A stretch of 64,000 nt of DNA from a virus. Both the position numbers and the translations under genes were made by a program. Shown piece after piece: positions 22,577-25,957 of this stretch (the first letter of the stretch is position 1; the number at the start of each line of letters is the position of its first letter). Below the pieces are notes generated by a model. That model searched no databases. It was given only the letters and a program-made list of their open reading frames with translations, and was not told where the DNA came from. The stretch covers positions 1 to 64,000 of IMG/VR virus record IMGVR_UViG_3300030333_002885; one strand, given 5' to 3'.

Positions 22577-22889
22577 GACTTGGAGTGCTGAAGACAAAAA
22601 AGAGGCAAGAGAAAAGTATTGGATTAATATCCATGCACCTGATTGTTCTCTTGAAAAATCTAATGTCAAATCATTGCCTACCAATTCTTATTTGGTAGAG
22701 TATACTGTTGATAATTCTGATAAGATTCACTATGATATAGTGATTGCTAGTAAAAGAGTAGATGTATTTGATTTCTATTGGGACAAACTTAAAGGTGGTC
22801 TTAAAAAGATAGGGTACACTAATGGTACACGGAACCCTGCTATGTGGGGCAATCCTCCTATAAAAGAATCTAAAAAGAAAAAGAAATGA
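22500..22889 (+). CDS. Hypothetical protein
   Basis: ORF coupled to the next gene; start uncertain. Confidence 0.6.
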   Translation: MAENTDAASQSLKKPTPISSGETEPKTWSAEDKKEAREKYWINIHAPDCSLEKSNVKSLPTNSYLVEYTVDNSDKIHYDIVIASKRVDVFDFYWDKLKGGLKKIGYTNGTRNPAMWGNPPIKESKKKKK

Positions 22890-23653
22890 CAAAGATCCTT
22901 GTTACTGGTCATAAGGGATTCATAGGCAGTTATGTCTTCAATCACCTTAGACATGATGCAGGTTATGGATACCTAGTTGATGGTATGGATTTCCCCGATG
23001 ATGTCGGGGATTTTCAGTCTGAGATTAGTATGTTTGAAAAACCATATGATTATGTCATACATCTCGCAGCATTTGCTAACATCAGAGGCAGTTTAGATAA
23101 CCCAGATGTATTCTGGGAGAATAATGTAGAGAAGTCTAAACCTATCTTTGAATATTGTAGGAGATATAATGTCAGACTACTCTATGCTAGTTCAGCACAG
23201 GTAGAGGAGTGGTGGCAGAATCCTTATGGTATTACCAAGAAGGTTAATGAACTACAAGCACCACCTAATAGTGTAGGAATGAGGTTCCAGACTGTTTATG
23301 GTGAGAACAGTAGGTCTGATATGTTATTCAGAATGCTACAGGATAAGACTGCTAAGTATATTACTAATCATAAGAGAGACTGGATCCATGTTAAGGATGT
23401 TGCTAGAGCAATTTGTTACCTAATGTCTAGTACATATACTGGACACATAGATGTAGGAACAGGTGAGACTATAACAGTCAGAGAATTAGCAGAAGCATTT
23501 GGTCAGGCAAATCTACCAGTCAAGGAGAACACACCAGGTGAGAGAGATGTCACATGTGCTGACACTACTGCCTTGCGTGAACTCGGTTGGTTTCCAAGGG
23601 AAAAAGTTTTAGACTGTATTCCTGAGGGAAAACCGAACTCTCGTTTCAAATAA
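22886..23653 (+). CDS. NAD-dependent nucleotide-sugar epimerase/dehydratase
   Basis: TGHKGFIG, IHLAA, YASS, YGITK, RDWIHV.D. Confidence 0.88.
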   Translation: MTKILVTGHKGFIGSYVFNHLRHDAGYGYLVDGMDFPDDVGDFQSEISMFEKPYDYVIHLAAFANIRGSLDNPDVFWENNVEKSKPIFEYCRRYNVRLLYASSAQVEEWWQNPYGITKKVNELQAPPNSVGMRFQTVYGENSRSDMLFRMLQDKTAKYITNHKRDWIHVKDVARAICYLMSSTYTGHIDVGTGETITVRELAEAFGQANLPVKENTPGERDVTCADTTALRELGWFPREKVLDCIPEGKPNSRFK

Positions 23654-23695
23654 TCGGGAAAAAAAATTCGGGAATTTTTTTGAGCCACAGGATTT
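23654..23695. repeat. A-tract dyad element, copy 2
   Basis: TCGGG-AAAAAAAATTC-GG-GAATTTTTTT-GA-GCC-ACAGGATTT. Confidence 0.75.
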
Positions 23696-23701
23696 CAAAA
23701 A

Positions 23702-23717
23702 TGTAACAGTTGTTACA
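23702..23717. promoter_or_regulatory. NtcA-binding box
   Basis: TGTA-ACAGTTGT-TACA, an exact TGTA-N8-TACA palindrome. Confidence 0.7.
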
Positions 23718-23741
23718 GTTCTGGTCTTATACATAGTAATG

Positions 23742-23750
23742 TGTTATAAT
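23742..23750 (+). promoter_or_regulatory. Extended -10 host-sigma promoter
   Basis: TGTTATAAT; predicted start near 23757 coincides with the 5' end of aptamer 1. Confidence 0.7.
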
Positions 23751-23756
23751 GCACAT

Positions 23757-23803
23757 ATCGTTCAGTCCCAACAGGGACCGCAAGTAAGCCGACTCGGAAC
23801 GGG
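23757..23803 (+). ncRNA. Glutamine riboswitch-like aptamer 1 (glnA/Downstream-peptide family)
   Basis: P1 CGTTC/GAACG; P2 GTCCC-AACA-GGGAC; CGCAAGTAAG junction; upstream of a YRG peptide. Confidence 0.75.
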
Positions 23804-23805
23804 TT

Positions 23806-23991
23806 ATCGTTCATCCCATGTTTCATCTAGCAGCAATAGCAGCAACCTTTTCTTGCATCGATGCTCAAATGTTGATCGATAAGATCAATGAGTTTAAGAT
23901 TGAAGAGGAAACACGAGCTGAGATGATCAGCGTAGTGTTAGACGAAACACCTCATTGTGAGTGGGACGCAAAAGCCGACTGAAGGAACGGG
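23806..23991 (+). ncRNA. Glutamine riboswitch-like aptamer 2 with a 143-nt P2 loop
   Basis: P1 CGTTC (23808) / GAACG (23985); P2 TCCCA (23814) / TGGGA (23962); CGCAAAAGCCGACTGAAG 3' segment. Confidence 0.7.
23818..23982 (+). CDS. 54-aa ORF nested within aptamer 2
   Basis: MFHLAAIAATFSCIDAQMLIDKINEFKIEEETRAEMISVVLDETPHCEWDAKAD*. Confidence 0.6.
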   Translation: MFHLAAIAATFSCIDAQMLIDKINEFKIEEETRAEMISVVLDETPHCEWDAKAD

Positions 23992-24020
23992 TCTAATCCA
24001 CCCTACCTAAGGTAACCAAA

Positions 24021-24164
24021 ATGGCAAAAGTCACTTATCGTGGTGTCGAGTACGACACTGAAGAGTACAACGCAAAAATTCTCGATGAGAATGCAAGGCG
24101 TAACAGACACGATCTAATGTATCGTGGACTCAAGGTAAAAAGTGCTGCAATTCCTTGCAGTTAA
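24021..24164 (+). CDS. DUF4278-type YRG peptide (47 aa)
   Basis: MAKVTYRGVEYD...DLMYRGLKV; two YRG motifs; AAGGT Shine-Dalgarno upstream. Confidence 0.8.
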   Translation: MAKVTYRGVEYDTEEYNAKILDENARRNRHDLMYRGLKVKSAAIPCS

Positions 24165-24191
24165 ACTAGCAAAACCTGTGCATAGTAAAAG

Positions 24192-24216
24192 GAGGGGTAG
24201 ACACCCCTCTTTTTTT
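24192..24216 (+). terminator. Rho-independent terminator overlapping a sigma70 promoter
   Basis: GAGGGGT-AGAC-ACCCCTC-T7; TAGACA (24198) - 17 bp - TATAAT (24221). Confidence 0.8.
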
Positions 24217-25223: not shown

Positions 25224-25353
25224 GATGTATAATGAGGAAGAACTCCATTATATGCGTCAGGCAAAACGAGAGGCTAAAGCAAAACTTAAATTGAAACAAC
25301 TTAGAAAACTACAAAATGACTGTAAAACTGATTCAGATAACACCAAAACCTGA
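25171..25353 (+). CDS. Small basic hypothetical protein
   Basis: KKALKHPEMY.EEEL.YM motif. Confidence 0.6.
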   Translation: MRLKETIKLVKKALKHPEMYNEEELHYMRQAKREAKAKLKLKQLRKLQNDCKTDSDNTKT

Positions 25354-25957
25354 GGAACAAATAGCGTATATCGCTAGGGTATCAAATCCCAAAAATCAGG
25401 ATAATCCAGATTATGCTAAATTGCTTGCTTATTGTATTAAGCATCAACATTGGTCTATATTTGAACAGGCATTTATGACATTGGAGATCGAGACCACTAG
25501 AGGTCTTGCTGCTCAGATATTGCGTCATAGATCTTTTACTTTCCAAGAATTTTCTCAGCGTTATGCTGATACTTCTTTAATGACAAAAGGTAGTTTAATA
25601 CCTATACCAGAATTGCGTCGTCAAGATTTAAAGAATCGTCAAAATTCTACAGATGATCTTGACCCAGAAAAGGTAAAAATGTTAGAGAAGGAAATTGCTC
25701 AACATTTTCATGATGCTCAGGATCTCTATCGTTATATGATAGATATGGGTGTTGCTAAAGAATGTGCCAGATTTGTATTACCACTTGCTGTACCAACTAA
25801 ACTGTACATGAGTGGTAGTGTAAGATCTTGGATACATTATATTGATCTTAGATCTGCTCATGGTACTCAGAAGGAGCATAAGGTTATTGCAGAGGAATGT
25901 AGAGAAATATTTAAGGTACAATTACCAACAGTATCTGAAGCATTGGGTTGGACATGA
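25316..25957 (+). CDS. thyX: Flavin-dependent thymidylate synthase
   Basis: HWSIFEQ, QILRHRSFTFQEFSQRY, ECARFVLP, TQKEH. Confidence 0.96.
   Translation: MTVKLIQITPKPEEQIAYIARVSNPKNQDNPDYAKLLAYCIKHQHWSIFEQAFMTLEIETTRGLAAQILRHRSFTFQEFSQRYADTSLMTKGSLIPIPELRRQDLKNRQNSTDDLDPEKVKMLEKEIAQHFHDAQDLYRYMIDMGVAKECARFVLPLAVPTKLYMSGSVRSWIHYIDLRSAHGTQKEHKVIAEECREIFKVQLPTVSEALGWT

What the first reader, a model, noticed from the sequence alone, without database searches (positions are those of the whole stretch)
23806..23991. A complete protein-coding ORF nested inside a riboswitch aptamer
Seen: aptamer 1 has a 4-nt P2 loop, while aptamer 2 has a 143-nt loop between TCCCA (23814-18) and TGGGA (23962-66). 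The A of the ATG (23818) is the last base of the 5' P2 strand. The frame stays open for 54 codons, reads the aptamer's 3' half as W-D-A-K-A-D, and stops at the TGA of CTGAAG (23980-82). The peptide has a hydrophobic N-terminus, an acidic helix and two Cys. Inference: aptamer folding and ORF translation should be mutually exclusive. That would give a toggle between the nested peptide and the downstream YRG peptide, an architecture I do not know to be described.
Basis: partly seen in the sequence, partly recalled or inferred. Interest (0 to 1): 0.92.

Follow-up and report, generated by a model that had tools for sequence, protein, structure and literature searches.

The report
Gene nested inside cyanophage glutamine riboswitch
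In this T4-like cyanophage, one hairpin of a glutamine-sensing RNA switch closes around a real 54-codon protein gene, so nitrogen sensing and translation of that gene should compete on one mRNA; many related phages share the layout and I found no paper that describes it.

Summary
Aptamer 1 (23757-23805) is a near-threshold glutamine-I match. The second aptamer is split: its 5' half is at 23806-23820, its 3' half at 23961-23992, and a 54-codon ORF (23818-23982, phrog_504) fills the P2 loop.

- **The layout is conserved.** In 78 of 78 distinct IMG/VR elements with a long loop, the same frame is open. The ATG lies 10-20 nt after CGUUCA, and the stop lies inside the aptamer's 3' half.
- **The ORF codes for protein.** Median dN/dS is 0.25 and two Cys are invariant.
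- **The helix closes across the gene.** P2 covaries across the gene (C-G, U-A; A-U, U-A, C-G). Native coding sequences favour helix closure (0.70 against 0.26 when shuffled).
- **The insert is optional.** The P-TIM68 ortholog has the same aptamer with a 4-nt loop and passes Rfam's threshold.
- **A second family does the same.** A distantly related Cys-Cys family sits in aptamer 1 of other phages.

So the gene and the enclosing helix are well supported. Glutamine binding, mutual exclusion and the toggle with the downstream DUF4278 peptide remain inference. The phage genes are annotated only as hypothetical proteins, and seven literature searches found no description. This scan has already noted the same layout on many other genomes. 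Verdict: a new variant of a known riboswitch class, of high interest.

The parts
23703..23716 (+). GTA-N8-TAC palindrome, an NtcA-box-like site upstream of the promoter
   Evidence: Read directly. P-TIM68 has GTA-N8-TAC at the same relative place. Binding was not tested.
23742..23750 (+). Extended -10-like promoter element (TGnTATAAT). Relatives have TTGACT-17-TATAAT here.
   Evidence: Sequence. The consensus scan did not list it because the -35 is weak. This is an inference.
23757..23805 (+). Aptamer 1, glutamine-I type with a 4-nt P2 loop. P1 is 23759-63 with 23797-801.
   Evidence: Rfam RF01739 33.9 bits, E 1e-5, gathering score 35. Custom model R1 gives 30.7 bits.
23797..23812 (+). Possible inter-aptamer hairpin: GAACG of aptamer 1 with CGUUC of aptamer 2, with a 6-nt loop
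   Evidence: The centroid fold shows it. The linker is 3-6 nt in 112 of 113 distinct loci. Its role was not tested.
23806..23820 (+). Aptamer 2, 5' half: P1 5' strand CGUUC (23808-12), A, and P2 5' strand UCCCAU, which contains the start codon
   Evidence: The same 5' half precedes the ATG by 10-13 nt in 74 of 78 distinct elements. Three more have the ATG at 10 nt and one at 20 nt.
23818..23982 (+). Nested gene of 54 aa: hydrophobic N-terminus, Cys13, two helices, Cys47, and a tail WDAKAD encoded by the aptamer
   Evidence: - ORF found.
- phrog_504, E 5.7e-11.
- dN/dS 0.25.
- 245 clusters in the HMM search.
- AF2 pLDDT 81.
23961..23992 (+). Aptamer 2, 3' half: P2 3' strand GUGGGA (23961-66), the junction CGCAAAAGCCGACUGAAG, and P1 3' strand GAACG (23985-89)
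   Evidence: R1 gives 30.8 bits. Near-identical to intact short-loop aptamers (A1), which include P-TIM68 at 35.4 bits against RF01739.
23989..24003 (+). Small hairpin GGGU-N7-ACCC that shares G23989 with P1. Probably part of the expression platform.
   Evidence: RNAalifold on 42 loci. The third pair is G-C 21, A-U 9, U-A 5, G-U 2.
24008..24012 (+). Shine-Dalgarno-like AAGGU of the downstream gene
   Evidence: Relatives have AGGAG or GGAG at the same place.
24021..24164 (+). Downstream 47-aa peptide with two YRG motifs (DUF4278 / IF17-like)
   Evidence: phrog_5049, E 3e-21. Pfam DUF4278 24.0 bits, below the cut-off of 25.3.
24192..24216 (+). GC-rich hairpin followed by a T7 run, an intrinsic-terminator-like end of the unit
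   Evidence: Sequence. The scan lists the same hairpin on the minus strand. The T run on the + strand was read by eye.

Best explanation
A short phage transcription unit carries, in order, a promoter, two glutamine aptamers 6 nt apart, a DUF4278 (IF17-like) peptide gene and a terminator. The P2 hairpin of the second aptamer is closed over a complete small-protein gene.

That gene's initiation region is the aptamer's 5' half. There is no Shine-Dalgarno, and the AUG lies inside P2 directly after the P1 5' strand. Its last six codons and its stop codon are the aptamer's ligand-binding 3' half.

Most likely mechanism:
- When glutamine is high, P1 and P2 close around the ribosome-free gene. This buries its start codon, so the nested gene is off. 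By analogy with cyanobacterial glutamine switches, it also opens the ribosome site of the DUF4278 gene, so the downstream gene is on.
- When glutamine is low, the 5' half stays open. Ribosomes load, run through the P2 3' strand and the junction, and stop 3 nt before the P1 3' strand. This keeps the aptamer unfolded.

Shown: the gene is real and under purifying selection; P2 covaries across it; the halves equal an intact aptamer; and coding sequences favour closure. Inferred: glutamine binding, the steric competition, and the sign of control on either gene.
For: - **Frame.** An ORF is present in 78 of 78 distinct long-loop elements. Other frames are closed, and 2.6% of shuffles stay open.
- **Coding selection.** Median dN/dS is 0.25 over 234 pairs, and 98% of pairs are below 1. 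Differences by codon position are 473/196/837. Cys13 and Cys47 are invariant.
- **P2 covariation.**
  - Pair 4 is C-G 30, U-A 26, U-G 18. Pair 5 is A-U 42, U-A 19, C-G 10.
  - Mean helix length is 6.28 against 4.74 +/- 0.16 when the strands are permuted, and no permutation of 2000 reached it.
  - The codon over the 3' strand changes W/E/K/R/G in step with the 5' strand.
- **Closure.** Predicted P2 pair probability is 0.70 native against 0.26 with a codon-shuffled interior. It is higher in 72 of 77 loci, p 7e-14.
- **Intact equivalent.** The P-TIM68 ortholog has the same aptamer with a short loop and scores 35.4 bits, at or above the gathering score of 35. There are 23 distinct short-loop versions.
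- **Generality.**
  - Among 112 tandem loci, 55 are short-long, 21 long-long, 14 long-short and 22 short-short.
  - A second family is nested in aptamer 1, with its stop in GCAAGUAAGCC.
  - That family is distantly homologous to the first (hhalign 86%, E 5e-6).
- **Feasibility.** A two-piece glutamine-II aptamer assembles on glutamine, and the equivalent stem-loop can be replaced freely (PMC6698751).
- **Sign of control.** Glutamine acts as an ON signal for DUF4278 genes (PMC6212724).
- **Weak support.** RNA-library contigs cover aptamer 1 through the ORF (23741-23920, 0 mismatches). A relative's contig runs from the ORF into the downstream gene.
Against: - No binding, structure-probing or translation data exist for any split aptamer.
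- Rfam and my own model cannot score the split form.
- Aptamer 1 is just below Rfam's threshold.
- Aptamer 2 lacks the AGUA of the glutamine-I junction, and aptamer 1 lacks the GAAG. Each alone may therefore be an incomplete core.
- The minimum-free-energy fold of the whole leader does not give the aptamer folds.
- The 3' half was fixed by my search pattern, so its conservation in that set is not independent. Loci found by protein similarity do keep it.
- The 5' half is transcribed about 150 nt before its partner. Ribosomes or the inter-aptamer hairpin may therefore capture it first.
- The small hairpin after P1 could argue for either sign of control.
Confidence: 0.55

Rival explanations
1. 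The parts are the same but the topology differs. The two 'tandem' aptamers swap strands. The 3' P1 strand of aptamer 1 pairs locally with the 5' P1 strand of aptamer 2. The outermost strands (23759-63 and 23985-89) form one outer P1 around everything. This outer P1 joins aptamer 1's AGUA junction with aptamer 2's GAAG junction into one complete glutamine-I core. The gene is still enclosed by P2 of aptamer 2.
For: - Both P1 helices have the same sequence.
- The linker between them is 3-6 nt in 112 of 113 loci, with a mode of 4.
- The order is always an AAGUAAG-type aptamer followed by a CUGAAGG-type aptamer.
- Each type lacks one half of the glutamine-I junction consensus (alignments).
- The centroid fold shows the local hairpin.
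- Earlier notes of this scan propose this topology.
Against: - P1 is invariant, so no covariation can tell the two topologies apart.
- One locus (L084) has a single nested aptamer with no partner.
- Each aptamer alone scores near Rfam's threshold.
- Published surveys treat such pairs as side-by-side doublets (PMC9481103).
Confidence: 0.25
2. Aptamer 2 is a relic. Insertion of the gene destroyed aptamer 2. Its halves persist only because they now serve as the gene's start region, C-terminal codons and stop. Aptamer 1 alone senses glutamine.
For: Standard models do not detect aptamer 2. The tail WDAKAD and the stop are supplied by the 3' half.
Against: - P2 covaries across the gene.
- The non-coding CGUUCA and the bases after the stop (AAGGAACGG) are kept, also in loci found by protein similarity.
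- The tail varies freely with aptamer type and frame (GRK, WDAND, ETQKPTEGTG), so the protein does not need it.
- Coding sequences favour closure.
- In 21 distinct loci both aptamers hold a gene, which would leave no sensor at all.
Confidence: 0.1
3. The ORF is a regulatory leader. Only the act of translating it matters, as a timer or a sensor of translation capacity that gates the aptamer. The peptide itself has no function.
For: Translation must unfold the aptamer. The gene has no Shine-Dalgarno.
Against: - There is strong protein-level constraint: dN/dS 0.25, two invariant Cys and a conserved helix pattern at 25-35% identity.
- A confident two-helix model.
- No enrichment of any regulatory codon was seen.
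Confidence: 0.05
4. The insert is not coding. It is a large structured RNA extension of P2.
For: The whole leader folds more stably than shuffles (z -2.8).
Against: - The frame is open in 78 of 78 elements.
- There is an excess of third-position change.
- dN/dS is well below 1.
- Lengths differ by multiples of three.
Confidence: 0.01

Closest known systems
Glutamine-I riboswitch (glnA RNA, Rfam RF01739), e.g. the Synechocystis gifB/IF17 leader (PMC6212724)
   Same: It has the same P1 (CGUUC/GAACG), a P2 hairpin directly after it, and CGCAA...GAAGGAACG junction bases. It sits in front of a DUF4278-type peptide gene. Translational control by glutamine is expected.
   Different: P2 here encloses a 143-nt loop that is a complete gene. 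P3 is reduced to about two pairs. The window's aptamers score below the gathering score or are not detected. It is phage-encoded, heterotypic and tandem.
Tandem (doublet) glutamine riboswitches (PMC2864571; PMC9481103: 157 doublets)
   Same: Two aptamers sit a few nucleotides apart before one gene.
   Different: Those are described as side-by-side, non-coding, pseudo-cooperative sensors. No gene inside an aptamer is mentioned.
Two-piece glutamine-II aptamer (PMC6698751)
   Same: It shows that the ligand site can be assembled from separated strands on glutamine binding. It also shows that the equivalent stem-loop is replaceable.
   Different: It is an engineered in-vitro construct, cut at another place and with no coding sequence.
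ORFs in peripheral loops of group I introns (homing endonuclease genes); from general knowledge, not tested here
   Same: A protein gene sits in a loop of a functional RNA fold whose helices must close around it.
   Different: There the RNA is a ribozyme and the ORF is a mobile element with its own start and stop. Here the start and stop codons are built from the sensor's own conserved bases.
Riboswitch-uORF interplay in Mycobacterium tuberculosis B12 switches (Kipkorir et al. 2024; seen only as a reference, not read)
   Same: Translation of a short ORF is coupled to riboswitch function.
   Different: As I recall it, that uORF lies in the expression platform, not inside an aptamer helix. I did not check this.

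Membership tests
Glutamine-I riboswitch (RF01739) | Covariance-model score at or above the gathering score (35 bits) | tested here: not met
   - Aptamer 1 scores 33.9 bits.
- Split aptamer 2 is not reported at E<=10.
- Orthologous intact aptamers pass: P-TIM68 35.4 and P-SSM2 35.1.
Glutamine-I riboswitch (RF01739) | P1 helix CGUUC/GAACG that forms the ligand site | tested here: met
   Both strands are present for both aptamers. They are invariant, so there is no covariation test. Predicted P1 pair probability for the isolated element is 0.95.
Glutamine-I riboswitch (RF01739) | P2 hairpin directly after P1, supported by covariation | tested here: met
   Six pairs in the window (23814-19 with 23961-66). 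Covariation and a permutation test over 78 elements.
Glutamine-I riboswitch (RF01739) | Conserved junction bases (CGGAAGUA ... GAAGGAACG) and P3 | tested here: inconclusive
   - Aptamer 1 keeps AAGUA but lacks GAAG.
- Aptamer 2 keeps GAAGGAACG but lacks GUA.
- P3 has about 2 pairs (alignments).
Glutamine-I riboswitch (RF01739) | Selective binding of L-glutamine | not testable with these tools
   Needs ITC or in-line probing.
Glutamine-II riboswitch (RF01704) | Covariance-model score at or above the gathering score (33 bits), with the pseudoknot fold | tested here: not met
   Aptamer 1 scores 24.3 bits with many non-canonical pairs in the second hairpin.
phrog_504 (phage small protein, function unknown) | Profile match over the whole length | tested here: met
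   E 5.7e-11, residues 6-52 of 54. The S-SSM7, P-SSM7 and P-HM2 homologs are annotated as hypothetical proteins.
DUF4278 (PF14105) / IF17-like peptides (downstream gene) | Pfam score at or above the curated cut-off (25.3 bits) | tested here: not met
   24.0 bits, E 4.9e-5. It is a strong match to phrog_5049. The two YRG motifs were read directly.
Leader peptide / regulatory uORF | The peptide sequence is unconstrained apart from regulatory codons | tested here: not met
   dN/dS 0.25, invariant Cys pair.

The most novel reading that the evidence does not exclude
Cyanomyoviruses use a previously undescribed kind of riboswitch, in which the sensor's own helices enclose protein genes. Start and stop codons are made from aptamer bases. 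One glutamine-dependent fold (possibly a strand-swapped double core) then switches translation reciprocally. It chooses between nested Cys-Cys mini-proteins and an IF17-like peptide, and so tunes host nitrogen assimilation during infection.
Probability: 0.35. Interest if true: 0.9.

Novelty: new variant of a known kind. Interest (0 to 1): 0.82.

Why it matters
Riboswitch aptamers are treated as compact non-coding domains, and phages are said to use them rarely; one survey found only two glutamine aptamers in cyanophage genomes (PMC5473149). Here a sensor encloses a translated gene, which has three consequences.

- **Scans miss it.** Standard RNA scans do not detect such switches, so riboswitch use by marine phages is undercounted.
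- **Dual coding.** The same bases are under both RNA and protein constraint. The residue before the tail switches between W, E, K, R and G to keep a helix.
- **A direct link.** Ribosome traffic on one gene becomes physically tied to ligand sensing for another.

The layout gives a directly testable model of how abundant ocean viruses read host nitrogen status. It also offers a natural design for two-output RNA switches.

Tried and rejected
- **Rfam scans.** The gathering-threshold scan of the window gave no hit. The permissive scan finds aptamer 1 only.
- **Custom covariance model.** The model built from 24 short-loop aptamers cannot bridge the 143-nt insert. It pairs the 3' half with a spurious local 5' strand. 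I substituted the intact P-TIM68 ortholog and L087, whose aptamer has the same P2 helix closed by a 2-nt loop.
- **Free-energy fold.** The minimum-free-energy fold of 23754-24026 does not reproduce the aptamers.
- **Host genomes.** The scan for the phage-type 3' half gave 28 hits. Most are in unrelated GC-rich bacteria, and one is a phage genome inside a Prochlorococcus single-cell assembly. No host copy was found at this stringency. This does not exclude diverged host versions.
- **Free-standing relatives.** Whether any member stands outside a riboswitch stays open.
- **Protein function.** The Foldseek search of the AF2 model against PDB found no match at E<=0.001. The protein atlas gave only unnamed viral clusters.
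- **RNA contigs.** Parts of the stretch without cover (23400-23732 and 24103-24213) prove nothing.
- **Apparent fusions.** Fusion proteins of the nested ORF with DUF4278 (P0092, P0095-98, P0120) come from gene calls that read TGA as W. In the window the two genes are not in the same frame.
- **Ames & Breaker 2011.** The paper could not be read.

Full report
**Setting.** The window is a fragment of a T4-like cyanomyovirus. The record has 75,597 bases and is about 34% complete. The closest public loci are in Prochlorococcus and Synechococcus myoviruses.

The finding lies in a compact unit read. The order is:
- a GTA-N8-TAC palindrome (23703-16);
- an extended -10-like element (23742-50);
- aptamer 1 (23757-23805);
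- a 6-nt linker;
- the split aptamer 2 (23806-23992);
- a small hairpin and an AAGGU ribosome site;
- a 47-aa double-YRG peptide gene (24021-24164);
- a GC hairpin with a T7 run (24192-24216).

**Observation.**
- Aptamer 1 scores 33.9 bits against Rfam Glutamine RF01739. The gathering score is 35 and the E-value 1e-5.
- Aptamer 1 scores 24.3 bits against Glutamine-II, where the gathering score is 33.
- Nothing in the 64 kb reaches a gathering score.
- The second aptamer is not reported at all, because its P2 loop is 143 nt long.
- P2 in the window has six pairs: U23814-A23966, C-G, C-G, C-G, A23818-U23962 and U23819-G23961. The A and U of the start codon are therefore paired.

**Is the split aptamer an aptamer?**
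- In P-TIM68 the orthologous unit has a nearly identical downstream peptide. It carries the same second aptamer with a 4-nt loop, and that aptamer scores 35.4 bits, above Rfam's threshold.
- A scan of IMG/VR for the 3' half alone returned 120 loci. In 121 elements (these loci, the window and the annotated phage loci), the distance back to the nearest CGTTCA is bimodal. It is 15-20 nt in 41 elements and 141-211 nt in 80.
- The 23 distinct short versions align with the window's two halves. L087 has the same UCCCA/UGGGA helix closed by a 2-nt loop.
- A covariance model built from them finds just two places in the window, aptamer 1 (30.7 bits) and the 3' half of aptamer 2 (30.8 bits). It cannot bridge the insert.

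**Is the ORF a gene?**
- All 78 distinct long-loop elements hold an ORF of 49-70 codons. In 74 of them an in-frame ATG lies 10-13 nt after the C of CGTTCA, and the frame runs to the TGA of CUGAAGG.
- The other four also begin just after CGTTCA, three at 10 nt and one at 20 nt. Three stop at a TAG in the P2 3' strand. One runs in another frame to the TGA formed by GUUGAC.
- Only 2.6% of shuffled loops stay open. The other forward frames are open in 2 and 0 of 77.
- The peptides fall into several subfamilies at 25-40% identity. They share a hydrophobic N-terminus, an invariant Cys, two amphipathic helices and a second invariant Cys.
- Median dN/dS is 0.25 over 234 pairs, and 98% of pairs are below 1. 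Differences by codon position are 473/196/837.
- The window's peptide matches phrog_504 (E 5.7e-11). Homologs are annotated as hypothetical proteins in S-SSM7, P-SSM7, P-RSM6 and P-HM2.
- A profile search of 1.84 billion representatives finds 245 clusters.
  - Among the best 150, 55 end in DAKAD-like tails. Most of the rest end in WDAND, which L157 shows is encoded by a shorter aptamer variant.
  - Some read the aptamer in another frame (ETQKPTEGTG). A few have endings I could not place.
- AlphaFold gives a confident two-helix hairpin (pLDDT 81) with low confidence at both ends. It has no fold match in the PDB.

**Does the helix close across the gene?**
- P2 pairs 4 and 5 show several Watson-Crick types. 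Pair 4 is C-G 30, U-A 26, U-G 18. Pair 5 is A-U 42, U-A 19, C-G 10, U-G 4.
- Mean contiguous helix length is 6.28, against 4.74 +/- 0.16 when 5' and 3' strands are re-paired among loci. None of 2000 permutations reached the observed value. Relatedness inflates such tests, but the swaps occur between subfamilies.
- The codon lying on the 3' strand changes among W, E, K, R and G in step with the 5' strand. RNA pairing explains this better than protein selection.
- In a thermodynamic model of each isolated element, the P2 closing pairs have probability 0.70. With the interior codons shuffled it is 0.26. The native value is higher in 72 of 77 loci, p 7e-14. P1 is 0.91 against 0.85.

**Generality.**
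- Among 113 distinct loci, 112 are tandem, with a linker of 3-6 nt between GAACG and CGUUC. The architectures are short-long 55 (this window), short-short 22, long-long 21 and long-short 14. One locus has a single nested aptamer.
- The gene nested in aptamer 1 belongs to a second family (phrog_6471 in P-HM2; 61-69 aa). It ends at the UAA of the conserved GCAAGUAAGCC, or at a stop in P2.
- Profile comparison aligns the two families Cys to Cys (86%, E 5e-6). A few members of the second family sit in aptamer 2 with the DAKAD tail.
- The phage-type sequence was not found in cyanobacterial genomes.

**Expression.** Contigs from four marine metatranscriptome runs lie on the unit.
- One contig matches 23741-23920 without a mismatch.
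- A relative's contig runs from inside the ORF into the downstream gene (23846-24061).
- Other contigs skip 159-162 nt and carry a short loop instead, which shows the presence/absence polymorphism.

This is weak evidence. RNA libraries can hold DNA, and contigs show no transcript ends.

**Mechanism.** The following are established for the class.
- The ligand site is built on the P1 helix and its neighbouring triple.
- The stem-loop after it is replaceable.
- A two-piece aptamer assembles on glutamine (PMC6698751).
- Glutamine turns on DUF4278 genes in cyanobacteria (PMC6212724).

The following are inferred here.
- The nested gene has no Shine-Dalgarno, so it depends on an open start region. 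A closed P1 and P2 bury that region.
- A ribosome stopping at 23980-82 covers 23985-89.
- A small hairpin after P1 uses the last G of P1. It covaries at its third pair and is probably part of the expression platform. I cannot say which state exposes the ribosome site.
- The two aptamers have identical P1 strands and complementary deficits in junction consensus. A strand-swapped topology, proposed in earlier notes of this scan, is therefore possible. I tested only the linker constraint and the fixed order.

**Known or new.**
- Weinberg 2010, Klahn 2018, Huang 2019, McCown 2017, Sherlock 2022 and the cyanophage papers that mention the switch contain nothing on genes inside aptamers.
- Ames & Breaker 2011 could not be read.
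- This scan has noted the same layout on many other genomes.

I class it as a new variant of a known riboswitch class.

Noticed in passing
window 23703-23716: A perfect GTA-N8-TAC palindrome (the NtcA-box consensus) lies about 30 nt upstream of the -10 element. P-TIM68 has one at the same relative place (L006 about 407-420).
   Followed up: partly
L003:872-1057 (Cyanophage P-RSM6): A manA RNA (RF01745, 188 bits) lies directly downstream of the riboswitch unit and upstream of the transaldolase gene.
   Followed up: no
L015, L020, L051, L061, L066 (about 10-50 nt after GGAACGG): In some phages an extra stem-loop of about 35 nt, capped by a tetraloop, is inserted between aptamer 2 and the ribosome site of the DUF4278 gene. 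An example is CACTC-GAAA-GAGT.
   Followed up: no
proteins P0092, P0095-P0098, P0120: Public gene calls read the aptamer's TGA as W. They fuse the nested peptide in frame to the DUF4278 peptide, so in those phages the two genes share a frame. In the window they do not.
   Followed up: partly
window 23739-23882 and proteins P0002, P0003: Some gene callers start the nested gene at an upstream ATG and read through aptamer 1, giving products of 76-93 aa. That ATG lies in the promoter region, so these look like mis-calls.
   Followed up: partly
L084:513-707 and upstream: This is the one locus with a single aptamer. The aptamer holds a nested gene and directly follows the promoter. It would be useful for testing whether a partner aptamer is needed.
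   Followed up: no
window 22886-23653 and 25316-25957: By eye, the flanking ORFs look like an NAD-dependent sugar epimerase (GxxGxxG) and ThyX (RHRxxS motif). No family search was run.
   Followed up: no
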